Below are positions 1,530 through 39,024 of a stretch of DNA of 64,000 bases, piece by piece (position 1 is the first letter of the stretch; the number at the start of each line of letters is the position of its first letter). The notes beneath the pieces are model-generated. The model had not been told where the DNA came from. It was given only the letters and a program-made list of their open reading frames with translations, and did no database searches. This DNA is from Deltaproteobacteria bacterium (GTDB lineage Bacteria > Myxococcota > XYA12-FULL-58-9 > JAFGEK01). The position numbers were made by a program, and so were the translations under genes. The stretch is taken from contig JAFGEK010000079.1 of NCBI GenBank assembly GCA_016931625.1, positions 258 to 64,257 of the forward strand. The letters are read 5' to 3'.

Positions 1530-2735
1530 ATGACTGATTTAATTATCCATGGGCATTTTTATCAACCACCGCGAGAAAATCCTTGGACAGGGTTAATCGA
1601 TCGAGAACCAAGTGCATATCCATATCATGATTGGAATGAACGTATTCATGCTGAATGTTATCGTGCCAACGCATTTGCAAGAGTATTAAATCAATATGGT
1701 CGTATCGAAAATCTGGTTAACAATTATGCATATTTAAGTTTTAATTTTGGCCCAACTTTACTGTCATGGATAGCTCGTAATGACAGCGAAACTTATAATC
1801 GTATAATTGCCGCAGATCGTTGGAGTGTAAAAGCAAACCACGGCCATGGTAATGCTATTGCTCAAGCATATAACCATATTATTCTACCATTAGCCAACAA
1901 ACGCGATCGACTTACTCAAATACGATGGGGTATTACTGATTTTAAATATCGTTTTGGTCGTCAGCCAGAATCATTATGGCTATCTGAAACGGCATGCAAC
2001 GATGAAACTTTAGGTGATCTTATAGATGAGGGCTTAAAATTTCTAATTCTATCACCAAATCAAGCTGAACGTATTAGACCAATAGAGGCAAAAGAGTGGC
2101 AATCAGTTACAGAGGGCAATATTGACCCTGGAGTCGCTTATAAATATTTTCATCGTGATGGCTCAGGTCGTTCAATAGCACTATTTTTCTATGATGGCCC
2201 AATAGCCCGCTCAATTGCTTTTGAAGGGACGCTAATATCTAGTCAATCATTAGTGAACCGTCTGGCTCAGGCTCACGGTGGCGATGGCCGAGTTGTGCAT
2301 ATTGCAACAGATGGTGAAAGCTATGGCCATCATACTCATTTTGGTGAACGTGGTATTGCTTATGCATTGCTTGATGAAGCACCAAAACAAGGTTTTAATA
2401 TTACCAACTATGGTAGTTACCTTGAGCGTAATCCTCCAACAATAGAGGTAGAGATAAAAACAGGCCCAAACGGTGAAGGTACAGCATGGAGTTGTGCCCA
2501 TGGTGTTGGACGCTGGTGTCGTGATTGTGGATGTCAAACAGGTGGAAGAGAAGATTGGAATCAAGCATGGCGTGCTCCCTTGCGGCAAGCTTTAGATTAT
2601 TTACGCGATGAAATAACAAATATATTTGAACAATTGGGCTACGAATATTTTATTGATCCTTGGGTAGCGCGTGATAAATATATAGAAATAATGCTTGAAA
2701 GACCAATAGATACTTCTTTTAGTGAAGTAAATTAA
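1530..2735 (+). CDS. glycoside hydrolase family 57 protein (alpha-glucan processing)
   Basis: N-terminal HGHFYQPPRE block and DGESYGHH block, both typical of GH57. Located 20 nt downstream of the treZ-like gene on the same strand. Confidence 0.7.
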   Translation: MTDLIIHGHFYQPPRENPWTGLIDREPSAYPYHDWNERIHAECYRANAFARVLNQYGRIENLVNNYAYLSFNFGPTLLSWIARNDSETYNRIIAADRWSVKANHGHGNAIAQAYNHIILPLANKRDRLTQIRWGITDFKYRFGRQPESLWLSETACNDETLGDLIDEGLKFLILSPNQAERIRPIEAKEWQSVTEGNIDPGVAYKYFHRDGSGRSIALFFYDGPIARSIAFEGTLISSQSLVNRLAQAHGGDGRVVHIATDGESYGHHTHFGERGIAYALLDEAPKQGFNITNYGSYLERNPPTIEVEIKTGPNGEGTAWSCAHGVGRWCRDCGCQTGGREDWNQAWRAPLRQALDYLRDEITNIFEQLGYEYFIDPWVARDKYIEIMLERPIDTSFSEVN

Positions 2736-4341: not shown

Positions 4342-4496
4342 TTTTAAGTGTTATTTATTCATTTGGTTTTCAACAAAGGTTGAGCAATGACTTGTGAGCA
4401 AAAATAAGGCCAATACTAACTGTCTAAAAATACGTTGTTTTAGTTGTAGCTAGGTAAGCAATGTAGCAATTTGCGACACTTTTTTTGAAGATTTTA

Positions 4497-4588
4497 AAAT
4501 TAGCTATCAAAGTAGAAGATCAGGGATAAACTTCCCAAGCCGTAGCAATACCAAGTTGGCCTTGGTAATTATCACCAAAGCAGTAGGG
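4497..4588. repeat. 92 bp direct repeat, copy 1 of 2 (about 90 percent identical to 9241-9332); corresponds to the 3' end of an RCC1-repeat gene
   Basis: aaattagctatcaaagtaga...gggataaacttcccaagccgtagcaataccaagttggccttggtaattatcaccaaagcagtagg matches 9241-9332 with a few mismatches. Confidence 0.85.
4520..4588 (-). pseudogene. orphan 3' fragment of an RCC1-repeat gene (last roughly 22 codons plus stop)
   Basis: The minus-strand translation reads ...PYCFGDNYQGQLGIATAWEVYP*. This is nearly identical to the C-terminus of the 9264-13085 gene (...EAYCFGDNYQGQLGNATAWEVYP*). An in-frame stop lies immediately upstream, so there is no gene body. Confidence 0.75.
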
Positions 4589-4594
4589 TTATAA

Positions 4595-4826
4595 ATTAGT
4601 TTAGTAATAATCGTCTTGCAAACCCTAAATTATTAGGCCAATAGTGGCAAAAGCAATGAGCAAAACATCACCTATAATATTAGATACGGCTAAGTTAGAG
4701 TTGCTAAAGCCCCCTGCGCAGCAACAACTGGCCGCCATTATTGAGTTATATGCTGCCTGCCCATTGGTTGAATATTTAATGTTGTTTGGCAGTTATGCGC
4801 GTGGTGACTTTGTTATTGATGAAAAA
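4595..4826. repeat. roughly 233 bp direct repeat, copy 1 of 2 (promoter/leader plus first roughly 60 codons of the nucleotidyltransferase gene); about 93 percent identical to 6255-6488
   Basis: attagtttagtaataatcgtcttgcaaaccctaaattattaggccaatagtggcaaaagcaatgagcaaaa... is shared by both copies. Homology ends at gatgaaaaa (4826 / 6488). Confidence 0.85.
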
Positions 4827-4883
4827 CTAAAACAACAAACTACTACTGAAAAATTATTTATGCTGTGCTGGAGTATCAAGTGA
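4644..4883 (+). pseudogene. truncated N-terminal fragment (roughly 60 aa) of the nucleotidyltransferase gene duplicated at 6305-7552
   Basis: MAKAMSKTSPIILDTAKLELLKP...LFGSYARGDFVIDEK matches the N-terminus of the 415 aa protein. It then diverges into a short nonsense tail that overlaps the Fic start codon at 4865. Confidence 0.75.
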
Positions 4884-6004
4884 CAAAAAACAATAAAAGC
4901 AACGCTTGGCAGCCATGTTATGAAATTACACCTAATATAGCTAAGTTGCTTATGTCTATTGCCACTATTAAAAGTGAGGTTGAGCATTTAACATTATCGC
5001 TAGTGCTTACCTCTAAGTTGCGGCAACAAGCCAAAATACGCTCAACCCATTATTCAACAAGAATCGAAGGCAATCGTTTAACATTAGCAGAGGCCACACA
5101 GGTGGTTAAACAAGGTAAAATAACTTTTCGTGGTCGTGAGCGCGACGTACGTGAAGTGCGCAATTACTGGAACGCGCTACTTAAAGTTGAGCAATGGGCG
5201 CGTGAACGTAGAATTATAAGCGAAAAGTTACTTCGTGACCTACATGCGTTAGTAGAAATTGGACCACGTGCTCGACCGACACCATATCGCGATGGCCAAA
5301 ACGTAATTAGTGACGCAGTTTCAGGTGCTATAGTGTACTTGCCTCCAGAAGCAAAAGATGTACCTGATCTCATGGCTGGTTTGGTGAAATGGATAAAAGA
5401 AGCCGAGCGAGCTAATATACCAATGCCTTTAATAGCTGGTTTAGCTCATTACCAATTTGTAACCATCCACCCATACTTTGATGGCAATGGACGCACCGCA
5501 CGATTACTTGCGACTTTTATTTTGCAACGCGGTGGTTTTGGCCTTAATGGATACTACTCACTTGAAGAACATCACGCTCGCGATTTGTCAGGCTATTATC
5601 AGGCTCTGGCTGTTCATCCACATCACAACTATTACGAAGGTAGAGCGCAGGCAGATCTAACTTTATGGCTTGAATACTTTATAGCTAAGTTGGCTGACAC
5701 CTTTGCCGCGGTAAAAACTGAGGCCAATCGTCTAACCCAGCACGGTGTTAGCACTATTCCTAAAGGGTTACAAAAACTCGATCAACGCGCCAAAGTAGTA
5801 ATTAGTTTATTTGTCGATGCTGATCATATCACAACCTCAGAGGTGGCGCAGGTATTGGGGCTGTCAGAACGTATGGCGCGATTGTTACTTGCTGATTGGG
5901 TAAATGCTGGTTGGCTGGTAATTGTCGAAGCATCACGCCGTAAGCGCAACTATAAGTTATCGGCAAAATATCGGAAATTTATCGGCAAGCCATCGGCAAA
6001 ATAA
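4865..6004 (+). CDS. Fic/Doc-family protein (putative AMPylating toxin) with N-terminal inhibitory-helix motif and C-terminal winged-helix domain
   Basis: Fic motif HPYFDGNGRTARLL. Upstream STRIEGN fits the [ST]xxxE[GN] auto-inhibition motif. The C-terminal ...SEVAQVLGLSERMARLLL... looks like a wHTH. Confidence 0.85.
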   Translation: MLEYQVTKNNKSNAWQPCYEITPNIAKLLMSIATIKSEVEHLTLSLVLTSKLRQQAKIRSTHYSTRIEGNRLTLAEATQVVKQGKITFRGRERDVREVRNYWNALLKVEQWARERRIISEKLLRDLHALVEIGPRARPTPYRDGQNVISDAVSGAIVYLPPEAKDVPDLMAGLVKWIKEAERANIPMPLIAGLAHYQFVTIHPYFDGNGRTARLLATFILQRGGFGLNGYYSLEEHHARDLSGYYQALAVHPHHNYYEGRAQADLTLWLEYFIAKLADTFAAVKTEANRLTQHGVSTIPKGLQKLDQRAKVVISLFVDADHITTSEVAQVLGLSERMARLLLADWVNAGWLVIVEASRRKRNYKLSAKYRKFIGKPSAK

Positions 6005-6254
6005 CGGTAATAATTTAAAAACAACGCGTTATAGGATGATTAAATAATTCTCGCGTAACTTCTTAATGAGTGCTTGCGAAGCATGGGTGTCATACCGAGT
6101 GCATTGAGAGATCTTACAATGAACATTAAAATAAAGAATCTTATCTGCGCTCTTAAATAACAAGTCTGCTTGCGTTTGTGCCACGATTTATTGAGAAGTT
6201 ACATACTCGCCTAGCTAGCATTTTATGGTTTTGCTCTGCAACATTAGAGTTATG

Positions 6255-6488
6255 CATTAGTTTAGTAATAATCGTCTTGCAAACCCTAAATTATTAGGCC
6301 AATAGTGGCAAAAGCAATGAGCAAAAAAGCACCTATAATATTAGATACGGCTAGGTTAGAGTTGCTAAAGCCCACTGCGCAGCAAAAACTGGCCGCCATT
6401 ATTGAGTTATATGCTGCCTACCCATTGGTTGAATATCTGATGTTGTTTGGCAGTTATGCGCGTGGTGACTTTGTTATTGATGAAAAAA
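6255..6488. repeat. roughly 233 bp direct repeat, copy 2 of 2 (promoter plus 5' end of the intact nucleotidyltransferase gene)
   Basis: See the 4595-4826 entry. Confidence 0.85.
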
Positions 6489-7552
6489 CCGGTTACCGCT
6501 CGGACTTTGATTTGCTTATTGTCACTCAAGCCGCCACTAATAAAGATGAAGACAGAATCTTTTTTGACCTTGAAGAGCAAGCACGTTTAATTACCGGTGA
6601 AACACCTTTATCAATAATTCGACATCATATTGCTGAACTAAATCGCGAAATACGCTCAGGGCAATTCTTTTTTGCCGAGATTGTGCGCGAAGGCATAACG
6701 CTTTATGACACCCATCATGTAAAAATAGCTAAGCCCAAGGCAGCTACTCCACAAGAACGCTTTGAGTTGAGCCGTCGCTATTTTTGCACTTGGTTTGCCA
6801 GCGCTAATGCTTTGTGGATTGTTTCACACAACATAACTTTTGCTGAGCGGCGCATGGCCGCCTTTTTGCAACACCAAGCTGCCGAGCGTTATTTTCATGC
6901 GGTGACTTTGGTGTTTGAAGGCTATAAACATCAAACGCATAATTTAGAATTTTTGGCCAAACGTGCTGAGCTATATCATGAATTATTGCAACCAGCTTTA
7001 GCGCGTAGTGAGCCGCACGATAAACATATATTTAATTTATTACGCCGCGCCTATATCGAGGCCCGCTATAATATGGGCTATGATGTAACGCAAGCTGAGC
7101 TTGATGAATTCAGTATACGCGTGCGTGACTTAGCCAACCGGGTGCATCGTGCTTGCAGTGAAAAACTAGCTTCGTATTTTGGTGGTGAGGCTATTGGCGA
7201 GTTGCCACTCGTGCCGAGCAAAGCTGATGTAAAAATATTGCCGCAACCGCCACCAGAATTTATTGACAATGGAGACTTTAAAATTTGGCAACAACTAGCC
7301 GAAAATTTTGCCAAGCAAGTTGGTGATGAGCGTGAGGCTCAAGGTGAGGCGAGGGGCCATGCCGCTGGCAAAGAAGAAGGGATTTTAGAAGGCCAAGCGC
7401 GGGCAATTATCGATATATTAAAACGAAGAGATATAAAAGTAGATGATGCTATGGCCGCGCAAATATTAAACTGCCGCGATGCTAACTTGTTAGCTAAATA
7501 TTGGGAGCGCGCGTTTGTGGTGGGGTCGGTTGATGAGATGTTGGGTGATTAA
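6305..7552 (+). CDS. three-part fusion: minimal nucleotidyltransferase (Pol-beta fold), HEPN-like helical domain, and C-terminal DUF4351-like domain
   Basis: NTase motif LFGSYARGDF...DFDLLIV. The central helical region has an R/H-rich motif (LLRRAYIEARYN), which I tentatively read as HEPN-like. The C-terminus GEARGHAAGKEEGILEGQARAIIDILKRRDIKVDDAMAAQILNCRDANLLAKYWERAFVVGSVDEML resembles the DUF4351 tail of Rpn/YhgA-like recombination-promoting nucleases. Confidence 0.65.
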   Translation: MAKAMSKKAPIILDTARLELLKPTAQQKLAAIIELYAAYPLVEYLMLFGSYARGDFVIDEKTGYRSDFDLLIVTQAATNKDEDRIFFDLEEQARLITGETPLSIIRHHIAELNREIRSGQFFFAEIVREGITLYDTHHVKIAKPKAATPQERFELSRRYFCTWFASANALWIVSHNITFAERRMAAFLQHQAAERYFHAVTLVFEGYKHQTHNLEFLAKRAELYHELLQPALARSEPHDKHIFNLLRRAYIEARYNMGYDVTQAELDEFSIRVRDLANRVHRACSEKLASYFGGEAIGELPLVPSKADVKILPQPPPEFIDNGDFKIWQQLAENFAKQVGDEREAQGEARGHAAGKEEGILEGQARAIIDILKRRDIKVDDAMAAQILNCRDANLLAKYWERAFVVGSVDEMLGD

Positions 7553-7677
7553 TTAGATACTAGAACTGTATCTTTAATAAGTCAGAAGCTTTTTCATATT
7601 CTAGAAACAGACACATTAAGTAATAGTAAACCATCGCTAAGACTATTATTTTCAAAAATAGGAATAGAAACAGTATA

Positions 7678-8850
7678 TTATTTATTGCTTTCAATTCTAT
7701 ACAATTTATCATTTTGCGATAATTTCACAATGATATATTCATCTTTTTTTAATTCATCTGGTAATTTGTCCTTCAAGATCGAGGCAACAAATTGAATATT
7801 TTTTGATTTAACAAGTTTGCCTATCATGACTAGTTGATTGTCATGCATTAGTTCTTTTTTATCGTTAAGTAAAAAATGCATGCAAGGAATATTTTCTTCA
7901 TCAGCAAAAAGTGTATAGGCAATATCAAAACAAGATATCTCCCCCTGCTTTTTGCCAGAGCTAAAATTAGCATTGAAAGCGGTGAACTCATAAAGGCGTT
8001 GCCCATTTTTTAATGTCTTCTGATCTGCCTTAAGTGCATATTTTTCGCCGTAAAGTTCATAGGAGACAGCTGAAAAATGTCTATTAAATTTATTAACCTG
8101 TTGTTTAATCTTTTCGGCGAATTCATCTGAAAAAAGGCCATCATCGATTTTATTTAGAGTTTGTTTGAGGGTGTATAGTTTATCTTCAACAGTTTTTAAT
8201 TGACTTAATATATGTTCATATTCGCCCATTTTTTGATATTTGAGATTAAGTTCTCCAATCATTGTTTCAAGAACTTCAAATGAGTCTGATTTTGTAACAA
8301 TAGCGCTGAGCCGGGTTTCTTCATCAATGAGATTATTTAATTGACTACGTTTGTTTTTAATATCTATCGCAATATTGGGTAACTCTTGCGCAATGAATTT
8401 TCGCTTCGATTCTACCATTTGGTTATGAAAATTGCATAGTTCTTTAAAAGTCTTCTGAACTTTATCTACAAGAGAAGTCGCTTGAAAATAGATTTGCTTA
8501 AGCTGTTGCTGATCAATATTGGCAACACTTGCCTATAGCTCACTCTGTGCCTCTAAAATTAATTCTTTTCTTAAGTCTAATCTGCTTATTTCTGATGATG
8601 TTATATTAATCTGATATTTAATTTTGTTAAGATTGTTTAGGTCAGATTCAAATGTGGGGTTGAGATTGAGAGCTGCTTTCTGGCTTTCTAAATCTTCAAT
8701 TTCTCCTTGCAAAAGCGCCAATGCAGTTTCATATGCTGCTTTTGTTTGTTCAGCTTCTAGGCGTTTTTTAAATTTTAATTCAACATCAATACTTGCTCGC
8801 AACTCTTGCTTGATATCGCCTTGGGCAAAATCGCAACCCAATAAAAACAA
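7678..8850 (-). pseudogene. N-terminally truncated gene for a DUF2326-like SMC/ABC-type ATPase (coiled coil plus C-terminal ABC lobe), interrupted by an in-frame TAG
   Basis: ORFs 8533-8850 and 7678-8418 are in the same frame, separated by a single amber codon at 8533-8535. The product is coiled-coil rich, then has SSGKKQGE (signature-like) and HFLLNDKKE (Walker B-like). Only about 400 nt lie upstream before the next gene, so the Walker A half is absent. Confidence 0.55.
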
Positions 8851-9240
8851 ATACAGAGTTTCGTATTCATCATCTCGCGTATATCTATCAAGGTTTTTAA
8901 GGGTGTTGTTGATATCAAGGTGATTACAGGTGACACCGTCTTAAAAACAAATAAAACATATTTTCTTTTAATCTTTACAACAAGTTATGGCTTATTTTGC
9001 AAAAACAATGTCCCCAATACTGCCTATCTTAAAATGTAAACTGCAATTAGTCGCTATTTATGTAGATGGCTAATTTCCTAAGTAGCAACTATTAAGTAAT
9101 ACTTAATAGTTCAAATTGAGGAATAATACATGGTAAAACGACTCTCACCGATCAAAGTAAAAACGACTTAAACCACATAGTATTCACCCATCATACCATG
9201 ACAATTTATTGCCTCTTATAATTAACTTTTTTAATTTTTT

Positions 9241-9332
9241 AAATTAGCTATCAAAGTAGACAATTAGGGATAAACTTCCCAAGCCGTAGCATTACCAAGT
9301 TGACCTTGGTAATTATCGCCGAAGCAGTAGGC
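9241..9332. repeat. 92 bp direct repeat, copy 2 of 2 (native 3' end of the RCC1 lipoprotein gene)
   Basis: See the 4497-4588 entry. Confidence 0.85.
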
Positions 9333-12300
9333 TTCGTATACCGCACCGTTTGCGCGAATACCACAAGTGAAGTTATCACCAGCAGCAACTGCCACCCAAT
9401 CAGTTTTGGCGCCGACTTGTACTGGAGTTGCCGATTGGTAAAATTGATAACCAGCGCCTAATTGCCCAGAGTGATTTGCACCCCAGCACCACAGCGAGCC
9501 TTTTCCTGCTGAAGCGTATTGAATACCGCAAGTATGATTTAAACCAGCAGCAACCCAAATCCAGTTATTACCAAGCGAAGTTGAAGATACCGGCGAATAG
9601 ACATCAGTAAAGGTGCCGTTACCTAATTGACCAAGACTATTTGAACCCCAGCAACGCAGCGAACCGGGAAAAGCTGAACCGGTAATACCACAAGTGTGAT
9701 TACCACCAGCACTAGCAGTTAACCATTGGGTTTGGCCGGACCAAGTGTTAGTGGGCATAAGAATTTTTGTCGGTGAATTTGAATCAATACCAATTTGCCC
9801 ATTAGCATTTTTACCCCAGCAGTAAAGTTCGTTATAACCATAAGTATAGTCATGACGAATGGCACACGAATGTTGATCACCAACTGCTAATTGAGTCCAA
9901 TCATCAAAGCTAGTACCGTTTTGCACCATTATTTGTGGAGTATTATAAAAGTTGTCGGATTGATTATTACCTAACTGTCCATCATTATTTTGTCCCCAGC
10001 AATAGACGCTGTTTGAACCTGATATTGATCTAATACCGCAAGTATGTTCTGATCCTGCGCCAACCGCAATCCAATCACTGCTATAATAATATTCACGCTC
10101 TGGTACAGCCCGAGAATTATAGGTACCAGTGCCTAATTGCCCAATGCTATTGTCACCGCTGCAGTATAGTTCGCCACCGTTAATGATAAAGCATGAATGT
10201 TTGGCGCCAGCGGTTACTTTATTAATAGCATTACTACCGCTAAATAGACCCACAGCTTCTTGGCGTGGCGCAATATCATCTATAAATTCTGTTGCAGGTG
10301 TTGGCCATTCATTACCAAGTTGGCCAAAGCGGTCATCACCCCAACACCAGGCTTTACCATATAAATCACGACCACAAGCATGCTTGCCGCCTGTTGATAG
10401 GCTAGTAAGTTCAATATATCCATAGCTAGTGTTAAGAACTTTATCGGTAGGCGCAAGCGTTGCCGCAATACCATTACCAACAGTGCCCTCATTGCGATTA
10501 CCCCAGCAATATAAACCATAACTATTAATTGCACAGGTATGTACAGCCCCAAGTGCGGCAGTAGTTGCGCCGTTTAATACTGCTGATGGACCTTGTGAGT
10601 AAGTATGGCCGACTCCTAATTGTCCATTATAATTACCGCCCCAACATTCAAGGTTATTGTTTCTTATGGCGCAAGTATGATTTGCACCAGCAAAAATCAT
10701 CCCACTCCAGTTGTCACTAAGATATAATGGATAAAGCGAAGATGAAGGTCCTACTTGTAGCCAACTATTATCACCCCAACAATATAACTTATCACCGGTG
10801 TCAAGAGCGCATGCATGTTTTTGTCCAACTACTACATTACGATATTGCATAGTATTATCTACTAAGGTCGGTTGAGATTTATATTGGTTATTACCTATAC
10901 CTAGTTGCCCATAATCGTTTTTACCCCAGCACCATAATGAATAGTCATTTTGAATGCCGCAAGTAAAATCATCACCAAGAGCAAAATCTTGCCATTGATA
11001 GCCACCACTTACAATGTTAGTAAAGTTTGATTCATAATCAGAAGTATTACCGAGACCTAACTGGCCATAACTATTGTTGCCCCAACAATATAAAGTTTTA
11101 TTACTAGTTAGAGCACAAGTATGCCTGGTACCAGCCTTAACTTTAACAAAATTATAGCTATAATCAGCAACCTGCATGGGCTCAGTAGGAATAGAGCCAG
11201 TATAACCTAAACCTAATTGACCGTCAGAATTTGCGCCCCAACACCATAGATCTTGATAAGCACCACCATTGGCATAGCGAAGCCCGCAAGTATGACCGCC
11301 ACCTGCAGTTGCTTGCAGCCAGTTATCTACACCATCAGCAGTTTCAGAGTGAATACGTGTAACCCATCCGATACGTTCATCGCCTAAATCAGGAGCGACT
11401 TGCCCATTTTTATTAGCACCAAAACACCATAAGCTTTGATCAGAGGCAATAGCACAGTTATGCTGTGCGCTCGGACCTGAATCAACAAATTGCCAAACCA
11501 TGCTGACTGTCCAAGTGCGAGTGTCTTCTGTTGTATTTCCAGCAGAGTCAGTAGCCCAAACAGTAAGAGTATGCGATGTTTCGGTTAGTCCATAGCGAGA
11601 AACATTTTCTGGATAATTGGTTGCAGTGGTCACATTTTCACTATCAAATTTATAAGTAATCGTGCAGCCATTATAATCGCTACAGTCAAGGTCTACATTA
11701 AAACTCGTGCGACTATCAGGGGTGGTAGGTGCAGAGGGATAAAAAGTCAGTGATAGTGTTGGTTGAACAGTATCGACGTCCCAATAGTAAGTAGCTCCAT
11801 AGTCATCACGATTATTAGAACTATCAAAGGCCCATACCTCAAATGTATGTGAACCCTCGTCGACATATTGAGAAATTGAACCACCACTACAATCGAAATA
11901 TGCACCATAATCTAAACGACATTCGTAAGTACAATTAGTTTCATTGCAGCTAAAAGTGAAATTTGCATATGAATCATTGGTGAGACTTGATGGTGATGAG
12001 TTAATATAAGTAATTGGAGGCGTAGTGTCAGCGCTTGCGACATACCAGGTGAAAGTAGATGGGCTATTGTCAACGTTGTTGCTGCTGTCAATGGCACGCA
12101 CCGCGAAATAGTGAGTCCCTGGTTGTAGAGAATAATAATCTATAGAGTTTGAAGAGCCATCGCCACAGGGAGCAAATGGTTCAGAATCAAGTCGACAGTC
12201 AAAGCCGGTGACTTGTATATTGTCGCTACCAGAAAAAGAAAAGTAAGCATAAGTGTTGGTTGATGATGAAGCTGGGGTGCTATTTAGGTATGTTTCAGGA

Positions 12301-13085
12301 GATTGAGAGTCAGTAATAGTAGTTACAATATTCCAACGATATTCTGGTGGTTGTGGATCATAATTGCCATTGTTGTCTTTGGCGCGTACACGAAAAACAT
12401 GCTCACCGTAACTTAAACTTGAGTATGAAAATGATCCAGGATTTATATTAGAACATACACTATATCCAGAATTATCAAGTTCGCATTCGAAATTAGCTAT
12501 TCCATAGTTACTACTAGCAGAGAAATAAAAATTTATATCTTTTTGAGTGGTCTGGGCAGTATCAGGATATGCGCTGGTAATAGTAGTAGATGGATATTCA
12601 AATCCAGAACTACTACCACTAGTATCAATTTGCACTTGCCAAGTATAAGATGCAGGATTATTATCTACATTACCAGAATTATCTCGTGCACGAACTTGAA
12701 AAGTATGAGAACCAGTCGATAGATCATTATATTGTATAGAAGCTTGACCACTGTTAGGTACGCCGCAAGGCGAAAAAGAGGCATCATCAAGACTGCAATC
12801 AAAACCAATCACACTATCATTATCTGTGCCGGTATATTTAAATTCAACTGATGTACCACTTGGGTTAGTTGGGGAAGAGGTTATTTGTGTATCTGGTGCA
12901 AGGGTGTCATTGCTAACCATGCTAGAATCATTAGGTACACAGATGTTATTGTTACAGTGAAACTCTTTAGCGCAATCGTCATCAGAATTGCATTTAAAAG
13001 TTTCTTTGTAAATATCCGGTACTTGTACAGTGCAACCGGTTAATAGCCAAATTAAAATAAAACAAGTGGTAAGATAGTGTCGCAT
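9264..13085 (-). CDS. giant secreted lipoprotein: N-terminal tandem roughly 95 aa beta-sandwich-type repeats followed by a long array of RCC1-like repeats
   Basis: Start set at MRHYLTTCFILIWLLTGC (lipobox LTGC, GAGGGAG Shine-Dalgarno upstream). Five to six repeats of the pattern F(D/E)C.LD...F..C....HTF.VRA.D..GN.D. Then more than 15 CWG.N..GQLG RCC1-type repeats. Confidence 0.85.
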   Translation of the reverse strand: MRHYLTTCFILIWLLTGCTVQVPDIYKETFKCNSDDDCAKEFHCNNNICVPNDSSMVSNDTLAPDTQITSSPTNPSGTSVEFKYTGTDNDSVIGFDCSLDDASFSPCGVPNSGQASIQYNDLSTGSHTFQVRARDNSGNVDNNPASYTWQVQIDTSGSSSGFEYPSTTITSAYPDTAQTTQKDINFYFSASSNYGIANFECELDNSGYSVCSNINPGSFSYSSLSYGEHVFRVRAKDNNGNYDPQPPEYRWNIVTTITDSQSPETYLNSTPASSSTNTYAYFSFSGSDNIQVTGFDCRLDSEPFAPCGDGSSNSIDYYSLQPGTHYFAVRAIDSSNNVDNSPSTFTWYVASADTTPPITYINSSPSSLTNDSYANFTFSCNETNCTYECRLDYGAYFDCSGGSISQYVDEGSHTFEVWAFDSSNNRDDYGATYYWDVDTVQPTLSLTFYPSAPTTPDSRTSFNVDLDCSDYNGCTITYKFDSENVTTATNYPENVSRYGLTETSHTLTVWATDSAGNTTEDTRTWTVSMVWQFVDSGPSAQHNCAIASDQSLWCFGANKNGQVAPDLGDERIGWVTRIHSETADGVDNWLQATAGGGHTCGLRYANGGAYQDLWCWGANSDGQLGLGYTGSIPTEPMQVADYSYNFVKVKAGTRHTCALTSNKTLYCWGNNSYGQLGLGNTSDYESNFTNIVSGGYQWQDFALGDDFTCGIQNDYSLWCWGKNDYGQLGIGNNQYKSQPTLVDNTMQYRNVVVGQKHACALDTGDKLYCWGDNSWLQVGPSSSLYPLYLSDNWSGMIFAGANHTCAIRNNNLECWGGNYNGQLGVGHTYSQGPSAVLNGATTAALGAVHTCAINSYGLYCWGNRNEGTVGNGIAATLAPTDKVLNTSYGYIELTSLSTGGKHACGRDLYGKAWCWGDDRFGQLGNEWPTPATEFIDDIAPRQEAVGLFSGSNAINKVTAGAKHSCFIINGGELYCSGDNSIGQLGTGTYNSRAVPEREYYYSSDWIAVGAGSEHTCGIRSISGSNSVYCWGQNNDGQLGNNQSDNFYNTPQIMVQNGTSFDDWTQLAVGDQHSCAIRHDYTYGYNELYCWGKNANGQIGIDSNSPTKILMPTNTWSGQTQWLTASAGGNHTCGITGSAFPGSLRCWGSNSLGQLGNGTFTDVYSPVSSTSLGNNWIWVAAGLNHTCGIQYASAGKGSLWCWGANHSGQLGAGYQFYQSATPVQVGAKTDWVAVAAGDNFTCGIRANGAVYEAYCFGDNYQGQLGNATAWEVYP

Positions 13086-13230
13086 TGCTCCCTCACAGCT
13101 AGTAACAATAAGGTATAACGGCTCTATTTTGAAAAACATGTAGTGCGATTTTAAAAAGGTTAATTCGAGGTAGTAAAAAATAGTAATAATGTAGTATAAA
13201 CGCAGATACTTATATTAGTTAGGCATAAGC

Positions 13231-14673
13231 ATGATTCGGGCTAAAAAACCTCAATTTGCAGCAAAAAAAAAGAAATATAAAAGGCGATCATCATCTATAG
13301 CATTGGTGGCGGAAAATTTATATTTGAATAACTATAATTCACGGGCGAAGAAAATCGATATTGGTGAGTTTGATCGAAACGCTAAGCTACAAAAATTAGC
13401 TTTAGATTTATGGAGTCGTATTCGTCTTGATTGGAATTATGTGGCAACACGATTATCGACAGCAGTGCGTCAAGAACGTTGGTTAAACAGTAAAGAAAGG
13501 CGAGATTTATTTGAATTATTATTTGGAATGATTCGCCAATATCGTAGGATAGATTATTTATTGAATAATGCGGGTGTGTTAATACCACCTGGTACTACCT
13601 ATGAATTAGCTCGCTTATTAATTTATAGACTAATAAATGATGAAATAGATATCGTGACTGCAAATAATTACTTTAAAAGTATTGATTGGCAAAAAGTTAT
13701 TGATAGCAATGCAAACCTTGCAAAAGAACATAATATGCAAAAACGTATTGCATATTTACACTCCTATCCAGATTGGCTTACTAAGCGTTTTATTAAAGAA
13801 TTTAATGAGGAAGCAGAGCCATTAGCAATAGCACTTAATCAACGGGCAAATTTAACGTTGCGATGTAACATTAGTAAAATATCTCGTAAGTCATTACTAG
13901 AGCGTTTTAGTGAAAAAAAAATATCAGCAGAAGCTGGTCAATTTTCAGACCAAGCAATAATACTTAAATCACACATAGATGTCTTTGGATTAACCGAATA
14001 TGCTGAGGGTTTATTTGAAACACAAGATGAGGGTAGTCAATTAATTGCCGCACTAATAGATGCTAAAGCAAATGATATAGTGGTCGATGTATGCGCGGGT
14101 GTAGGAGGAAAAACTTTTGCTATAGCTGCTACTATGCAAAATAAAGGCAGTATATGGGCACTTGATATTGATGCTAAAAAACTTGCAGCGCTTGATAAAC
14201 GCGCGCGCCACTTAGATTTATCAATAATTAGAACACTATCTACAGCGACGGATAATTGGCCAACAGAAATCGCAGCGCTAATAGGCAAAGTAGATCGGGT
14301 TTTAGTCGATGCACCTTGCACTGGTACTGGTGCTTTGCGACGCAATCCCGAAAATCGCTGGCGTTTAAATGAACAAGATATTGGTGTACTTGCTAAGCTA
14401 CAAGAAAAGTTAGTTATAAGATCATTATCGCTTTTAGCTAAAGGGGGTCGTTTAGTTTATGCGACTTGTTCTTTGTTGCAGGAGGAAAACGAGGCAGTTA
14501 TTGCGCGTGTGCTTAAGCGTGCATCTAATATTGAGTTAGTACCTATTAATAAGGTTGTTAAGCAACAGCTTGCCGCACAAATAAGTGATCAGCAGGGGTT
14601 GTATTTGCAAACATTACCGCATACACATGGTAGTGATGGATTTTTTGCCGCAGTTTTGCAAAGAGTTTGTTAG
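13231..14673 (+). CDS. rsmB: 16S rRNA (cytosine-C5)-methyltransferase, NOL1/NOP2/Sun family, with NusB-like N-terminal domain
   Basis: SAM-binding motif VVDVCAGVGGKT, the DAPCTGTG catalytic Cys motif, and YATCS motif VI. Confidence 0.85.
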   Translation: MIRAKKPQFAAKKKKYKRRSSSIALVAENLYLNNYNSRAKKIDIGEFDRNAKLQKLALDLWSRIRLDWNYVATRLSTAVRQERWLNSKERRDLFELLFGMIRQYRRIDYLLNNAGVLIPPGTTYELARLLIYRLINDEIDIVTANNYFKSIDWQKVIDSNANLAKEHNMQKRIAYLHSYPDWLTKRFIKEFNEEAEPLAIALNQRANLTLRCNISKISRKSLLERFSEKKISAEAGQFSDQAIILKSHIDVFGLTEYAEGLFETQDEGSQLIAALIDAKANDIVVDVCAGVGGKTFAIAATMQNKGSIWALDIDAKKLAALDKRARHLDLSIIRTLSTATDNWPTEIAALIGKVDRVLVDAPCTGTGALRRNPENRWRLNEQDIGVLAKLQEKLVIRSLSLLAKGGRLVYATCSLLQEENEAVIARVLKRASNIELVPINKVVKQQLAAQISDQQGLYLQTLPHTHGSDGFFAAVLQRVC

Positions 14674-14755: not shown

Positions 14756-15001
14756 ATGCAATGGATAAATGCGTCTGAATTTAAAGCAAAGTGTTTAGCA
14801 ATGCTCGATGAAGTGGCAAAGAGTACTGATGGTATAACTATTCTTAAAAGAGGACGTCCTATTGCTAAGTTAATACCTTATGTTTCGAGCGATGAAAAAT
14901 ATCCACAGAATTCATTAAAAGGCAGTGTTGTGATTAAAGATGATGTTATAAAGCCAGTATTGTCTGATTCAGTTTGGGAGGTAGATAAGCATAATTTATG
15001 A
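14756..15001 (+). CDS. type II antitoxin, Phd/YefM-like
   Basis: Small acidic protein ...KAKCLAMLDEVAKSTDGITILKRGRPIAKLIP... Its stop overlaps the start of the downstream PIN toxin gene by 4 bp (ATGA). Confidence 0.75.
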   Translation: MQWINASEFKAKCLAMLDEVAKSTDGITILKRGRPIAKLIPYVSSDEKYPQNSLKGSVVIKDDVIKPVLSDSVWEVDKHNL

Positions 15002-15509: not shown

Positions 15510-16043
15510 GTGTCAGATAATATGGCAGAAATAAAAAGCGATAGCCAAGTTATCGGTAAACCCCTTATCAGCGACTTGGTGGCAAACGATATTGATAATA
15601 GTCTGCAAAGTTCACTAACAGTCTCAGCGTTTATTAATAATAGTCAAATAATTGAAACAAACAAATTAGTATATAGTGATGCAGACTTATTTTGCGATGG
15701 CGATGAACAATTATATTCACAGTATATTACAGGTAATCCAGCAAGTGGGCAGAATTTTAGCGCCAATAGCAATTATTTAAGTTTAAATACTGATTTTGCC
15801 TGCCACAACAACGCTGGGGTTAATTTATCGGTTTCTTCAAGTAAAATTAAAGCAGCAGAAGATGTAGAGATAGAAGAGGCCTTTAAGTTTTTAAAGCACA
15901 TCGGTTTTTCAGATGAGCAAGCGCTTGATACGATTACGGTAGGAATAACTAGTACAGTTAGCCAAATTGCCATCGCAAACAGTTGCGATGCTGCAAGACT
16001 TACCAGAAGAAATCGTTGCATTTATACCAATAGAGAAACTTAA
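15510..16043 (+). CDS. hypothetical protein (Ser/Asn-rich). It may continue by a +1 frameshift into ORF 15967-16335.
   Basis: ORF only; no recognisable motif. It overlaps the next ORF by roughly 75 nt in a different frame. Confidence 0.4.
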   Translation: MSDNMAEIKSDSQVIGKPLISDLVANDIDNSLQSSLTVSAFINNSQIIETNKLVYSDADLFCDGDEQLYSQYITGNPASGQNFSANSNYLSLNTDFACHNNAGVNLSVSSSKIKAAEDVEIEEAFKFLKHIGFSDEQALDTITVGITSTVSQIAIANSCDAARLTRRNRCIYTNRET

Positions 16044-16385: not shown

Positions 16386-17690
16386 TTACTGCCATCTTAG
16401 CGGTTTATTTAGTAGCATCTCACTAAAAGCATCTATGCGTGTACGGACTTGTGAAGGATTAAAACTATGAGAGTCAATGCAACAAGCGTCAAGAGTTAAT
16501 ACTGGTATTTGTTCGCGTAAGAATAATTGCTGTAAAAGCGGATATTGCATAGCATAAACTCCACAATGAGGCATAGCTAGCATTACCACGCCATCAATAC
16601 GATGCTCTTCGGCTTGCTCTAATAAAAGTTTAAAGCGTTGTTGGGGTAAAATCGATTCACGGGAATTAAGTAGGTGTTTGGCTAAATCATCATAGGGGTC
16701 ATATAAATCACAACCTTTAAAGTTAAGTTCTGATATATCTTCCCATACAAAACGAATCAGGCCATCACGCTCGATATATTCAACTATATCATTGGGATAG
16801 TATGGCATTAAAAACATCCACATAAGCCGCCGCTGTGGTTGTTGTTTAACTTGATCATCATTTTGTAAACGTTCTTGGTAACTTTGCAGCATATGTTGGG
16901 CAAAGGCAGTAAATTCCGGCTTACCATAGTAGGGTGAAACTCCAATGGTAAGTGATTGAAAGACACTTGGCGGATCAAGCAATGGGTAGCGACTGCGCAA
17001 ATGCAGTGCAGCTTTAAATGCGGTATAGGCATTATGGGCGTATGCTAAACTATTGTGTAAGTTTGCAGAACTAAGGGTTTCACCAGTTTGCTTTTCAATT
17101 AGGTGAGTCAACTCATATAGTTGTGATGCCACATATTTAATGGCATTAATATTATCACCGGCATTATAGGGCACGTTAATTAAATAATGTGGCGCTTGAT
17201 AATGATGAGCTGCAAAACTATATACATTGGATATACCTTCACAACCTTTAGCCGTGTTAATAATAAAATCTGGCGAAGCACAAATATTTAAGTATTGACT
17301 GGCAGGTATCGTGCGGACAAAATTGCATACTGATCGTGGTATGCCGATTTTGTCAGCAGCAATAAGCAGACATTGCTCGGCGCCCTGAGCTGCAAATAAT
17401 GAACCGATAGCTTCAACCGGAAAAAAGACAAGGCTGCTAAAGGCATTAAGTAATTCAGGGGGGACGGTAATATTGCGCCAGACTACAAAAGCATCTGGGG
17501 TATAAGCGCGACGCAATTCAGAGGCAATTAATGATAAAGGTGATGAAGTAGCTGCGGTCGGGTTAAGCGAGAGATCAGCGGCAATTTTGTTGGCCAAAGT
17601 TTTTTTAGGTATTTTATGTCGACGTAATTCGGTAAATAGCCTCGCTATTTGTTGACTACGTTCATGATGTTGTAGCTTAATTAAACTCAT
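16386..17690 (-). CDS. 2-hydroxyacyl-CoA dehydratase-family subunit (HgdB/BcrB/BadE-like)
   Basis: Size and Cys-containing blocks (e.g. MPHCGVYA, LDACCIDSH) are typical of the dehydratase family that depends on an ATPase activase (a CoA-substrate-specific enzyme activase). Confidence 0.6.
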   Translation of the reverse strand: MSLIKLQHHERSQQIARLFTELRRHKIPKKTLANKIAADLSLNPTAATSSPLSLIASELRRAYTPDAFVVWRNITVPPELLNAFSSLVFFPVEAIGSLFAAQGAEQCLLIAADKIGIPRSVCNFVRTIPASQYLNICASPDFIINTAKGCEGISNVYSFAAHHYQAPHYLINVPYNAGDNINAIKYVASQLYELTHLIEKQTGETLSSANLHNSLAYAHNAYTAFKAALHLRSRYPLLDPPSVFQSLTIGVSPYYGKPEFTAFAQHMLQSYQERLQNDDQVKQQPQRRLMWMFLMPYYPNDIVEYIERDGLIRFVWEDISELNFKGCDLYDPYDDLAKHLLNSRESILPQQRFKLLLEQAEEHRIDGVVMLAMPHCGVYAMQYPLLQQLFLREQIPVLTLDACCIDSHSFNPSQVRTRIDAFSEMLLNKPLRWQ

Positions 17691-35864: not shown

Positions 35865-35904
35865 CGAAGTAACAACCATCGCCTTAAGGCGATGGTTGTT
35901 ACTT
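35865..35904. other. perfect 18 bp-stem inverted repeat with 4 nt loop (GAAGTAACAACCATCGCC-TTAA-GGCGATGGTTGTTACTTC)
   Basis: Seen in the sequence. It lies 64 nt after the lipoprotein gene stop and overlaps the predicted start of ORF 35892. No U-tract follows. Confidence 0.6.
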
Positions 35905-38918: not shown

Positions 38919-38944
38919 TGTTAAAAAATTTTTTCAAGGCAAAT

Positions 38945-39024
38945 ACCCATAAATATATCCAAAAATATCCATAATTATTGATATTTTCATTAATATATGG
39001 ATATTTATGGATAAACATATGGGT
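38945..39024. promoter_or_regulatory. roughly 80 bp imperfect palindrome carrying four ATATCCA(T) boxes (two direct, two inverted) bounded by ACCCATA / TATGGGT; candidate operator
   Basis: Seen in the sequence, between the copA stop and the start of the Fic-remnant ORF at 39030. Confidence 0.45.

What the first reader, a model, noticed from the sequence alone, without database searches (positions are those of the whole stretch)
4595..6488. Fic gene embedded between two roughly 233 bp copies of the promoter plus 5' end of the nucleotidyltransferase gene
The segment carrying the upstream leader and first roughly 60 codons of the NTase gene is present twice, about 93 percent identical (4595-4826 and 6255-6488). 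The first copy is truncated exactly where the Fic ORF begins; the Fic ATG at 4865 lies inside the truncated fragment's tail. So Fic appears to be expressed from a copied NTase promoter and 5' region, possibly coupled to translation of the fragment. The complete NTase gene follows after a 250 bp spacer. Homologous recombination between the copies would excise Fic cleanly and leave the NTase gene intact. This is a cassette-like arrangement reminiscent of recombinational phase variation or gene capture.
Basis: seen in the sequence. Interest (0 to 1): 0.6.

Follow-up and report, generated by a model that had tools for sequence, protein, structure and literature searches.

The report
Fic gene between duplicated gene starts
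A Fic enzyme gene of a type linked to phage defence sits between two near-identical copies of the start of a neighbouring gene, which looks like a scar of recombinational gene gain in a small defence islet rather than a programmed genetic switch.

Summary
The repeat is real. Windows 4595-4826 and 6256-6487 match at 224 of 232 bases with no indels. Each copy holds 61 nt of leader plus the first 57 codons of an NTase-HEPN gene (6317-7552). The upstream copy is a dead stub: it keeps the GS motif but lacks DxD. It is joined sharply, at an A-run, to 53 nt of unrelated DNA that precede an intact class II Fic gene (GTG 4880-6004).

- No promoter-like site lies inside the repeat.
- Fic has its own GGAG and start codon.
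- The stop/start overlap is automatic in this Fic clade, because every fetched member starts ATGA or GTGA.
- Nothing indicates a reversible switch.

There is a new finding. The whole 4.6-kb block (stub, Fic, NTase-HEPN, a DUF2326 remnant) is bracketed by a 108-nt copy of the 3' end of the adjacent RCC1-like gene. I found no recombinase in the block or within about 15 kb. My best reading is two nested gene-gain scars in a defence islet lacking an integrase, each of which left its target gene intact. No close relatives could be fetched, so the history is inferred.

Side finding: a 4 x 11-bp array (TTATCGGCAAT) at the Fic 3' end is conserved at the DNA level across distant genomes.

The parts
4483..4590 (-). 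Outer repeat, left copy. It is an orphan copy of the last 21 codons, the stop and about 37 nt downstream of the RCC1-like gene.
   Evidence: 95/108 identical to 9227-9334. It translates to YCFGDNYQGQLGIATAWEVYP* against ...YCFGDNYQGQLGNATAWEVYP* in the intact gene. In the coding part there are 4 silent differences (3 synonymous codons plus TGA for TAA) and 1 replacement, read from the sequence.
4595..4826 (+). Inner repeat copy 1 (R1): 61-nt leader plus codons 1-57 of an NTase gene.
   Evidence: 224/232 identical to 6256-6487 with no indels. tblastn of the NTase finds residues 1-57 at 4656-4826 and nothing further in 4827-6255.
4656..4883 (+). Stub ORF of 75 aa: NTase residues 1-57 fused to 18 unrelated codons. 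It keeps G45-S46 but lacks D63xD65. Its TGA overlaps the Fic GTG.
   Evidence: ORF list. No Pfam hit. It is annotated in the source MAG as hypothetical protein JW841_07025, and it is the only database match to itself.
4827..4879 (+). Junction segment of 53 nt unrelated to the NTase gene. It carries GGAG (4870-4873) for Fic. It may be the remnant 3' end of a former upstream operon partner of Fic.
   Evidence: Identity to copy 2 drops to 3/20. The tail ...EKLFMLCWSIK* resembles the C-terminus ...LELFFVRWKIA* of the SNF2-type helicase whose stop overlaps the closest Fic homologue's start in L089. This rests on a single comparison and is only suggestive.
4880..6004 (+). Intact Fic gene of 374 aa, class II type with a C-terminal winged-helix region.
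   Evidence: Pfam Fic, E = 1.4e-15. PADLOC SoFic model, E = 1.4e-48. Both motifs STRIEGN and HPYFDGNGRTAR are present, and the alignment to homologues is full length at 62-67% identity. The best solved relative is 4rgl, E = 1.5e-26.
5954..6011 (+). Array with 11-bp period, TTATCGGCAAA ATATCGGAAAT TTATCGGCAAG CCATCGGCAAA ATAACGGTAAT, spanning the Fic stop codon.
   Evidence: the repeat finder family D2. The same array sits at the 3' end of all five independent close homologue genes despite GC3 of 0.70-0.81 against 0.35 here. Codon identity given identical residues is 0.91, against 0.25-0.55 elsewhere in the gene.
6005..6255 (+). Spacer of 251 nt between Fic and repeat copy 2. It contains the best promoter-like match of the region (6104-6132).
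   Evidence: Promoter scan: TTGAGA-17-TAAAAT, 10 of 12, but the count is not above shuffles, and no terminator-like site is found. No homology to NTase, to the outer repeat or to the fetched proteins. No plus-strand ORF of 40 aa or more starts after the Fic stop.
6256..6487 (+). Inner repeat copy 2 (R2): the leader and first 57 codons of the intact gene.
6317..7552 (+). Intact NTase-HEPN fusion gene of 411 aa, with a C-terminal extension of about 110 aa.
   Evidence: Pfam Polbeta (26.1 bits, just under its 26.9-bit cutoff) and HEPN (26 bits, cutoff 22). Identical to P0001 from the source MAG. 649 homologues, mostly from Polyangia and 'Deltaproteobacteria' MAGs.
7678..8418 (-). C-terminal fragment of a DUF2326-type gene (a candidate defence ATPase family). 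It is 5'-truncated and decayed.
   Evidence: Pfam DUF2326, E = 1.5e-20. The PADLOC candidate PDC-M68B model matches only positions 333-557 of 581. ORFs upstream of it, 8533-8936, have no family hit.
9227..9334 (-). Outer repeat, right copy. It is the working 3' end of the RCC1-like gene (9264-13139).

Best explanation
The two copies are a scar of recombinational gene gain. They are not a programmed device.

A DNA segment carrying an intact Fic gene became joined to codon 57 of a resident NTase-HEPN gene. That segment brought Fic's own ribosome-binding site, 53 nt of former upstream sequence and 251 nt of downstream sequence. The join is one illegitimate junction in a short A-run (4826|4827). 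On the other side, a complete NTase-HEPN gene with its leader follows. As a result, the first 232-246 bp of that gene are present twice.

The simplest history needs one illegitimate joint plus one homologous exchange. This could be an unequal or homology-facilitated exchange with a diverged allele that already had Fic upstream of its NTase-HEPN gene.

The same signature occurs one level out. The whole 4.6-kb islet is bracketed by a 108-nt copy of the 3' end of the neighbouring RCC1-like gene. In both events the target gene stayed intact.

Functional consequences are inferred, not shown:
- The stub is catalytically dead because it lacks DxD.
- Transcripts that start upstream of the stub would read through it into Fic. 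Fic can initiate from its own GGAG and GTG.
- No terminator-like site separates Fic from the NTase-HEPN gene, so read-through is possible. The spacer may also supply that gene with a promoter of its own.
- Recombination between the copies would delete Fic precisely. This would be a one-way loss.
For: - The repeat is real and in register.
- The right edge is sharp at an A-run and the left edge is fuzzy.
- No NTase-like sequence lies beyond codon 57 in the insert.
- Fic and NTase-HEPN are both full length against their homologues.
- The outer 108-nt repeat is an orphan gene end. Its differences are mostly silent, as expected if the two copies diverged as working alleles.
- The six residue differences between R1 and R2 all fall at variable positions of the family. 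At the two informative sites, R1 carries the state common in relatives.
- No recombinase, tRNA or known RNA lies in or near the islet.
- The content is defence-type: a PADLOC SoFic hit, a fragment of a candidate defence ATPase, and weak NTase hits to candidate families.
- There are parallels elsewhere. In L089 a second Fic gene sits between two 98-nt copies (95%) of the 3' end of a methyltransferase gene, and the second copy keeps the ATGA overlap with the next gene. L038 and L074 carry recent tandem copies of NTase-HEPN genes, and in L038 the upstream copy is frameshifted with 1.3 kb of other genes between the copies. In L054 an 87-nt repeat brackets a 4.2-kb block that begins with an NTase-HEPN gene.
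- Fic/Doc genes are known to be embedded in other defence operons (PMC3710099).
Against: - No close relative of this locus could be fetched, so neither the empty site nor the donor arrangement has been seen. The order of events is inferred from one sequence.
- The 11/16 similarity at the left edge overlaps the last bases of the outer repeat. That fits a duplication made in place after the islet arrived better than import from a donor, unless it is microhomology.
- The leader is perfectly conserved over 71 nt while the coding part has 8 differences. The chance of this under a uniform spread is about 0.05. It could mean selection or gene conversion on the leader, which a pure scar does not predict.
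- Promoters of this organism may not fit the consensus that was scanned.
Confidence: 0.6

Rival explanations
1. Campbell-type entry of a circular cassette. A 1,661-bp circle (repeat + Fic + spacer) integrated by a single homologous crossover in the NTase 5' region. It can leave and re-enter the same way, so it would be a mobile defence cassette that needs no integrase.
For: The topology is exactly what a single crossover of a circle gives, with direct repeats in register. The same topology surrounds a second Fic gene in L089. The Fic module has a sharply defined 3' boundary marked by a conserved array. Phage contigs show an array-only site (L116, L117) against array plus Fic (L096, L097) at the same position between the terminase and portal genes.
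Against: The circle would already have to contain the illegitimate NTase-codon-57|Fic joint, so this explains spread but not origin. No circle, no empty site and no second occurrence of this leader were found. The Logan contig breaks are those expected from any repeat.
Confidence: 0.15
2. Tandem duplication followed by decay. The NTase-HEPN gene was once present as two tandem copies with a Fic-containing operon between them. A later deletion removed the upstream copy from codon 58 down to 53 nt before Fic.
For: Recent tandem copies of this gene family occur in 2 of 85 fetched loci. In L038 the upstream copy is already frameshifted and 1.3 kb of other genes lie between the copies. In L038 the repeat starts 57 nt before the start codon (144 nt in L074), against 61-76 nt here. 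The stub's tail resembles the end of a helicase that precedes Fic in L089. The right half of the islet is visibly decaying.
Against: It needs more steps. There is no trace of NTase sequence beyond codon 57, nor of helicase sequence beyond 18 codons. The 96.6% identity would then require a recent duplication or gene conversion.
Confidence: 0.15
3. Remnants of site-specific integrative elements that carry a surrogate end of their target gene, in the way e14 and phage 21 do at icd. On this reading both repeats are att sites and the integrases have been lost or act in trans.
For: Both repeats duplicate a gene end and leave the target gene intact. The outer repeat shows mostly silent differences, as is known for the icd case (own knowledge).
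Against: No integrase or other recombinase domain is found in the islet or within about 15 kb. A 1.66-kb unit holding only Fic cannot encode one. There is no tRNA or tmRNA target.
Confidence: 0.07
4. A programmed switch or shared-leader expression system. On this reading the duplicated leader plus N-terminus is kept by selection, either to co-regulate Fic and NTase-HEPN or to allow population-level on/off switching of Fic.
For: The leader is identical over 71 nt. The stub ORF is open and ends on the Fic start. A 24-nt stretch covering the NTase start region is 83% complementary to Fic codons 23-30 and pairs with it in the predicted fold.
Against: Direct repeats give irreversible loss. No recombinase is present. 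No promoter-like site lies in the repeat. The fold is no more stable than shuffles, z = 0.12. The stop/start overlap is automatic in this clade. The leader is not conserved upstream of a 57%-identical relative. The complementarity is within what chance gives for a 6-kb region (my estimate, about 0.2 expected).
Confidence: 0.03
5. Assembly artefact: the MAG contig joins two strains or loci through a shared 232-bp sequence.
For: The source is a metagenome-assembled genome, and short-k assembly breaks inside the repeats.
Against: The two copies differ at 8 sites and no perfect tract exceeds 71 nt, so normal assembly k-mers or reads link each copy to its own flanks. An independent assembly reproduces R1-end/Fic/spacer/R2-start exactly.
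Confidence: 0.03

Closest known systems
Insertion that duplicates a target-gene end, as with prophage e14 and phage 21 at the 3' end of icd in E. coli (own knowledge)
   Same: The inserted DNA is bracketed by a direct repeat of 100-250 bp that is a copy of one end of a gene. The gene stays intact, an orphan end is left on the far side, and the copies differ by scattered substitutions that are often silent.
   Different: No integrase is present at either level. The inner event duplicates a 5' end with its leader rather than a 3' end. The inner unit is only 1.66 kb with a single cargo gene.
Insertion-duplication by single crossover of circular DNA (Campbell-type), and partial duplications made during gene transfer: homology-facilitated illegitimate recombination (PMC3240628) and transformation-generated merodiploids (PMC3784515)
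   Same: One homologous exchange plus at most one illegitimate joint gives new DNA flanked by a duplicated stretch of the recipient. The sharp joint lies at a short run of identical bases.
   Different: Those are laboratory observations in E. coli and S. pneumoniae. Nothing is known about DNA uptake or recombination in this organism, and no donor has been identified.
Fic/Doc and RhuM genes embedded in restriction-modification and other defence operons (Anantharaman et al. 2013, PMC3710099)
   Same: A Fic gene is wedged directly into another defence gene's expression unit. In L089 the closest homologue overlaps an SNF2-type helicase gene, and a second Fic sits between methyltransferase and RhuM genes.
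   Different: The host gene here is an NTase-HEPN fusion, not an R-M component. To my knowledge the duplicated gene ends around such embedded genes have not been described.
SoFic, a single-gene Fic anti-phage system with a small downstream antitoxin AS1 (PMC12249575)
   Same: A class II Fic with an internal inhibitory helix and a C-terminal domain. The PADLOC SoFic model matches over nearly its full length.
   Different: It is far below the NCBIfam SoFic equivalog cutoff, 50.8 against 550 bits. It is only distantly related to solved SoFic chains, E about 3e-8. No plus-strand ORF of 40 aa or more starts downstream of Fic in the spacer. Defence activity is untested.
Orphan toxin modules in CDI and Rhs loci (own knowledge), and units of exchange that span gene ends in tandem paralogue clusters (PMC2568036)
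   Same: Short stretches homologous to part of a main gene flank alternative modules and serve as recombination handles.
   Different: Those systems swap 3' toxin-encoding ends among many silent copies. Here there is one 5' stub and the two genes are unrelated.

Membership tests
Integrative element with a surrogate target-gene end | Direct repeats that are copies of one end of the target gene flank the insert, and the target gene stays intact | tested here: met
   Inner repeat 224/232, with NTase-HEPN full length. Outer repeat 95/108, with the RCC1-like gene reading through to its stop.
Integrative element with a surrogate target-gene end | An integrase or other site-specific recombinase is encoded in the element | tested here: not met
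   Pfam, NCBIfam and PADLOC scans of the ORFs in 4591-9226 and of the flanking genes give Fic, NTase-HEPN, a DUF2326 fragment and housekeeping genes only.
Integrative element with a surrogate target-gene end | Empty and occupied sites exist among relatives, or excision products are detectable | not testable with these tools
   Contigs of the closest relatives (P0002-P0004) are not retrievable. The genome scan returned only relatives of 44% identity or less. The metagenome scans found nothing close.
Programmed recombinational phase variation | A repeat geometry that allows reversible switching, such as inverted repeats or a bank of silent cassettes | tested here: not met
   There are only two copies and both are direct. 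The outcome would be deletion.
Programmed recombinational phase variation | A dedicated recombinase next to the repeats | tested here: not met
Programmed recombinational phase variation | Both alleles present in one population | not testable with these tools
   No reads are available. The one independent contig breaks in the repeats, as any repeat would cause.
Class II Fic AMP-transferase | Active-site motif HxFx(D/E)GNGRxxR | tested here: met
   HPYFDGNGRTAR, invariant in the alignment. Pfam Fic, E = 1.4e-15.
Class II Fic AMP-transferase | Inhibitory motif (S/T)xxxE(G/N) in the same polypeptide, N-terminal to the Fic core | tested here: met
   STRIEGN at residues 59-65 of the 374-aa protein, invariant in the alignment.
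SoFic anti-phage system | Match to the family models | tested here: inconclusive
   PADLOC SoFic gives E = 1.4e-48 over 53-349 of 361. NCBIfam equivalog gives 50.8 bits against a cutoff of 550. Solved SoFic chains match only at E about 3e-8.
SoFic anti-phage system | Protection against phage | not testable with these tools
   This needs an experiment.
Minimal nucleotidyltransferase + HEPN (fused) | NTase GS...DxD motif | tested here: met
   G45-S46 and D63-F-D65 are in the full gene and are invariant among seven relatives. The stub ends at residue 57 and lacks DxD.
Minimal nucleotidyltransferase + HEPN (fused) | HEPN Rx4-6H RNase motif | tested here: not met
   Pfam HEPN is matched at 26 bits against a cutoff of 22. 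However, the conserved block reads RAYIEARY, with no His at the expected spacing. This resembles the non-catalytic HEPN domains of nucleotidyltransferases listed in PMC3710099.
Integron gene cassette | An attC-type imperfect inverted repeat at the cassette end, and an integron integrase | tested here: not met
   The element at the Fic 3' end is four direct 11-bp repeats, not an inverted repeat. No integrase is present.

The most novel reading that the evidence does not exclude
This Fic clade may travel as a discrete cassette that needs no integrase. The cassette would be the ORF plus a terminal 4 x 11-bp TTATCGGCAAT array. It would plug into resident genes by homology and leave duplicated gene ends around itself. 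The 1,661-bp unit here would then be an excisable circle, and the conserved array would be its boundary, recombination or operator site.

Three hints point this way. A second Fic in L089 sits between duplicated methyltransferase ends. The array is under DNA-level constraint across genomes with GC3 from 0.35 to 0.81. In related phage contigs, an array-only site contrasts with an array-plus-Fic site at the same position.
Probability: 0.1. Interest if true: 0.7.

Novelty: new member of a known kind. Interest (0 to 1): 0.38.

Why it matters
If the reading is right, the locus is a clean snapshot of how defence genes pile up in small islets that have no integrase. Each gain duplicates an end of the gene it lands in, so the resident gene survives. 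The newcomer inherits a 5' context, and a ready-made substrate for precise loss is left behind. That bears on the open question of how defence islands turn over without obvious mobility genes, but a single locus without relatives is only an anecdote.

The conserved 11-bp array inside the Fic coding end is a separate, testable lead. It marks a cis-element in a widespread Fic clade whose regulation is unknown.

Tried and rejected
- **Exact-protein look-ups.** NTase-HEPN (two start choices), the long Fic ORF, and the closest relatives P0002 and P0003 gave nothing. Only Fic from GTG 4880 hit, on a 1.5-kb Logan contig that ends in the repeats.
- **Genome-collection scan with a subfamily alignment.** None has this Fic next to it.
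- **Metagenome scans.** The leader as an exact 51-mer gave 0 hits. A degenerate pattern for LFGSYARGDFVxD gave 6 loci, all distant.
- **Homologue search with the 75-aa stub.** It found only itself.
- **A third copy of the outer repeat in front of R2.** Not found.
- **Spacer against NTase 3' ends, the fetched proteins and the rest of the window.** Nothing.
- **tRNA, tmRNA and Rfam.** Nothing.
- **Leader conservation against the 57%-identical relative in L002.** None.
- **RNA fold of R1 plus the Fic start.** Long-range pairing is predicted, but z = 0.12.
- **Plasmid collection.** No close Fic.
- **Stub as a Fic antitoxin.** Rejected. It has no (S/T)xxxE(G/N) motif, and this Fic carries its own inhibitory helix.
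- **SoFic-type downstream antitoxin.** No plus-strand ORF of 40 aa or more starts after the Fic stop.
- **Literature search for the array sequence.** Nothing relevant.
- **Bracketing repeats around NTase-HEPN genes in Flagellimonas (L005, L017).** These look like ordinary intergenic repeats and were not pursued.
Full report
**1. Observation**

The window holds a direct repeat at 4581-4826 and 6242-6487 (246 nt, 95%). Self-BLAST gives E = 9e-109. In an ungapped comparison at offset 1661, the core is 4595-4826 against 6256-6487, with 224 of 232 bases identical and no indels. The 70-nt leader occurs exactly twice in the 64 kb and never in shuffles.

Each copy holds 61 nt of leader plus the first 57 codons of the gene at 6317-7552. 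The eight differences lie in codons 4-41. Six change the residue and two sit in one synonymous codon. Perfect tracts are 71, 24, 19, 11, 33, 16 and 48 nt long.

The right edge is abrupt. Identity is 48/48 and then 3/20, and the break falls in an A-run (4822-4826 against 6483-6488). The left edge fades, with 11/16 identical over 4579-4594 and random similarity before that.

An independent assembly of run SRR13394437 gives a 1,489-nt contig identical to window 4797-6285. It confirms the two inner junctions, and it breaks inside the repeats as a short-k assembly would.

**2. The genes**

*NTase-HEPN.* The full gene encodes a 411-aa fusion. It matches Pfam Polbeta (26.1 bits, just under its 26.9-bit cutoff) and HEPN (26 bits, cutoff 22). 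It has 649 detected homologues, mostly in Polyangia and 'Deltaproteobacteria' MAGs, and is identical to a protein on a 75.5-kb NCBI MAG contig. The GS and DxD motifs are present. The HEPN block reads RAYIEARY without the canonical His.

*The stub.* It runs from ATG 4656 to TGA 4883 (75 aa). It keeps GS but ends at residue 57, before DxD, and then continues through 18 unrelated codons. It has no family hit. The only database match is itself, annotated as hypothetical protein JW841_07025.

*Fic.* The gene starts at GTG 4880, as shown by alignment with 11 homologues that begin M-(T/S)...W-x-P and by the Logan gene call. NCBI's own 350-aa call is probably too short. GGAG lies at 4870-4873.

- Fic is class II: it carries STRIEGN and HPYFDGNGRTAR, plus a C-terminal winged-helix region.
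- It matches the PADLOC SoFic model at E = 1.4e-48.
- It is far below the NCBIfam SoFic cutoff and only remotely like the solved SoFic chains. The closest solved structure is 4rgl.
- Homologues of 62-67% identity occur across Planctomycetota, Thermodesulfobacteriota, Chloroflexota and Methanoperedens, so the gene moves horizontally.

**3. The surroundings change the picture**

A second, outer direct repeat lies at 4483-4590 and 9227-9334 (95/108 identical). The right copy is the working 3' end of a 1,291-aa RCC1-like gene on the minus strand. The left copy is an orphan that still encodes its last 21 residues and a stop, with one replacement and four silent differences.

The 4.6 kb between the two copies holds the stub, Fic, the NTase-HEPN gene and the C-terminal fragment of a DUF2326-type gene. 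That fragment matches only positions 333-557 of 581 in a PADLOC candidate model.

The flanks are housekeeping genes: alpha-amylase, GH57, comM, rsmB and acyl-CoA dehydratase-type genes. There is no recombinase, tRNA or Rfam match.

The locus is therefore a small defence islet lacking an integrase, inserted into the end of a chromosomal gene, with a second insertion nested at its left end. R1 begins within a few bases of the islet's left boundary.

**4.

- *'Copied promoter'.* The consensus scan finds no site inside the repeat. Candidates lie outside it, at 4471-4500 and 6104-6132. The overall count (7) is not above shuffles (8.3), and no terminator-like site follows Fic.
- *Translational coupling.* The GTGA overlap is real. 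However, all fetched members of this clade start ATGA or GTGA because the second residue is Thr or Ser, so the overlap is automatic. Fic also has its own GGAG.
- *Clean excision.* It follows from the geometry, but it would be irreversible.
- *Same leader with other cargo.* I found none in the window, in JGI metagenomes or among proteins.
- *Population heterogeneity.* This could not be tested.

**5. Where the 53 nt came from**

In the closest Fic homologue's locus (L089, 67% identity), the Fic start overlaps the stop of an SNF2/DEAD-type helicase gene. That helicase ends ...LELFFVRWKIA*. The stub ends ...EKLFMLCWSIK*. That is four identities in the last nine positions, including Trp, in the same register relative to Fic.

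My rough estimate of the chance probability is about 0.002. It rests on one comparison made after the fact. If the similarity is real, Fic arrived with the last 18 codons of a former operon partner, and 4826|4827 is an illegitimate joint.

**6. Parallels elsewhere**

- *L089.* A second Fic gene of a different subfamily lies between two 98-nt copies (95%) of the 3' end of an N6/N4 methyltransferase gene. The second copy directly precedes RhuM with the same ATGA overlap.
- *NTase-HEPN loci.* Among 85 loci with NTase-HEPN relatives, two have recent tandem copies (87-90% nucleotide identity). In L038 the upstream copy is frameshifted and 1.3 kb with two small genes lies between the copies.
- *L054.* An 87-nt repeat brackets a 4.2-kb block that begins with the NTase-HEPN gene.
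- *Frequency.* Across 1.35 Mb of fetched loci, such repeat pairs (60-400 nt, at least 85% identity, 0.6-6 kb apart) occur roughly once per 170 kb. Two nested pairs in one 5-kb stretch is therefore unusual, but the numbers are small.

**7. Mechanism**

What is shown:
- two nested duplications of gene ends around acquired DNA;
- one sharp joint;
- intact target genes;
- a dead stub;
- no recombinase.

What is inferred: the gain came from one illegitimate joint plus a homologous exchange with a diverged allele. The alternatives are a tandem duplication followed by deletion, or single-crossover entry of a circle.

Two points favour an origin from a second working allele over pseudogene drift. All six residue differences between R1 and R2 fall at variable positions of the family, and at the two informative sites R1 keeps the commoner state. 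The differences in the outer repeat are also mostly silent.

One point goes the other way. The fuzzy left edge overlaps the last bases of the outer repeat. That fits a duplication made in place, unless it is microhomology.

I put 0.6 on 'recombination scar of gene gain, not a programmed device'. Within that reading, I cannot separate the sub-histories without relatives.

**8. Comparison with known systems**

- The closest analogues are insertions that duplicate a target-gene end (e14 and phage 21 at icd; own knowledge) and insertion-duplications from single crossover or homology-facilitated illegitimate recombination (PMC3240628, PMC3784515).
- Fic/Doc and RhuM genes wedged into defence operons are described in PMC3710099.
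- SoFic is a described single-gene defence system with a small downstream antitoxin (PMC12249575). No such ORF follows this Fic.
- Membership in 'integrative element' fails on the integrase. Membership in 'phase variation' fails on repeat geometry and recombinase. Membership in 'integron cassette' fails on attC and integrase.

**9. Side finding**

The 11-nt periodic repeat at 5954-6011 (family D2) is not a coding quirk. The same four-unit array, consensus TTATCGGCAAT, ends the Fic gene in all five independent close homologues fetched. Their GC3 is 0.70-0.81 against 0.35 here. They even use TTA for Leu in high-GC genomes.

Codon identity given identical residues is 0.91 (128/140) in the last 15 codons, against 0.25-0.55 in every other 15-codon window. 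Sequence after the array is unrelated between loci, so the array marks the 3' boundary of the conserved module.

In two phage-like contigs with a 55%-identical Fic (L096, L097), the array lies directly upstream of the Fic start instead. It sits between the terminase and portal genes. Two related contigs (L116, L117) have the array at the same place without any Fic.

The array could be an operator for Fic's own winged-helix region, or a boundary or recombination site. I found no relevant literature.

**10. Verdict**

The feature is a new member of a known kind, namely a gene-gain scar with a duplicated target end. Its interest is modest, and is raised a little by the nesting, the absence of any recombinase, the parallels in other defence loci and the conserved array.

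Noticed in passing
window 4483-4590 and 9227-9334: A 108-nt direct repeat (88%) brackets the whole 4.6-kb block. The left copy is an orphan copy of the last 21 codons of the RCC1-like gene (9264-13139, minus strand). The block is therefore an inserted islet with no integrase.
   Followed up: yes
window 5954-6011; L089 9075-9120; L090 9073-9115; L092 7073-7115; L093 7079-7121; L094 6076-6118: A 4 x 11-bp array (TTATCGGCAAT) at the 3' end of the Fic ORF is conserved at the DNA level across genomes with GC3 from 0.35 to 0.81. Codon identity is 0.91 there, against about 0.4 in the rest of the gene. Sequence beyond the array is unrelated between loci.
   Followed up: partly
L096 5934-5977, L097 (minus strand, about 2562-2604), L116 260-301, L117 10001-10044: In related phage-like contigs the same array lies between the terminase and portal genes. 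In L096 and L097 a Fic gene follows it directly. In L116 and L117 no Fic is present, so these look like occupied and empty sites.
   Followed up: partly
L089 14225-14322 and 15602-15699: A second Fic gene (Fic_N type) sits between two 98-nt copies (95%) of the 3' end of a methyltransferase gene. The second copy keeps the ATGA overlap with RhuM. A 45-nt similarity (89%) recurs before the next gene (15566-15610 / 16749-16793).
   Followed up: partly
L089 4121-4246 / 4994-5119; L090 13869-13956 / 14782-14869: Small genes of unknown function (146 and 179 aa) are each bracketed by direct repeats of 88-126 nt at 90-94% identity.
   Followed up: no
L038 7610-8535 / 9858-10782; L074 9737-10762 / 11052-12075: Recent tandem copies of NTase-HEPN genes (87-90% nucleotide identity). 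In L038 the upstream copy is frameshifted, and two small genes lie between the copies.
   Followed up: partly
L054 9803-9887 / 14002-14088: An 87-nt direct repeat (87%) brackets a 4.2-kb block that begins with an NTase-HEPN gene in a Phenylobacterium MAG. The right copy lies just upstream of and overlaps the start of an ORF whose translation looks like an ECF-type sigma factor (by eye; no family scan was run).
   Followed up: no
window 4640-4663 and 6301-6324 against 4946-4969: A 24-nt stretch covering the NTase start codon region, present in both repeat copies, is 83% complementary to Fic codons 23-30. It pairs with them in the predicted fold, but the fold is no more stable than shuffles (z = 0.12).
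   Followed up: partly
window 4827-4883 against L089 7966-8004: The last 11 residues of the stub ORF resemble the C-terminus of the SNF2-type helicase that precedes the closest Fic homologue. The segment may be a remnant of a lost upstream gene.
   Followed up: partly
window 43572-44567 (minus): A second, unrelated Fic-domain gene of 331 aa lies in the same window (Pfam Fic, E = 3e-15; 29% identity to the first Fic).
   Followed up: no
window 1530-2735: The GH57-type gene matches only positions 1-49 of 284 of its usual C-terminal DUF3536 domain, and it ends 17 nt before the end of comM. It may be truncated.
   Followed up: no
window 35866-35905 and 38944-39025: A perfect 40-nt palindrome and an 83-nt imperfect palindrome (82%).
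   Followed up: no
window 7220-7552 (NTase-HEPN residues about 300-411): The C-terminal extension, with Glu/Gly/Ala-rich repeats, is found only in the Polyangia-type subfamily. Relatives in other phyla align only to residues up to about 290-310. One homologue carries a precomputed PF14261 hit, and others carry PF09811.
   Followed up: no
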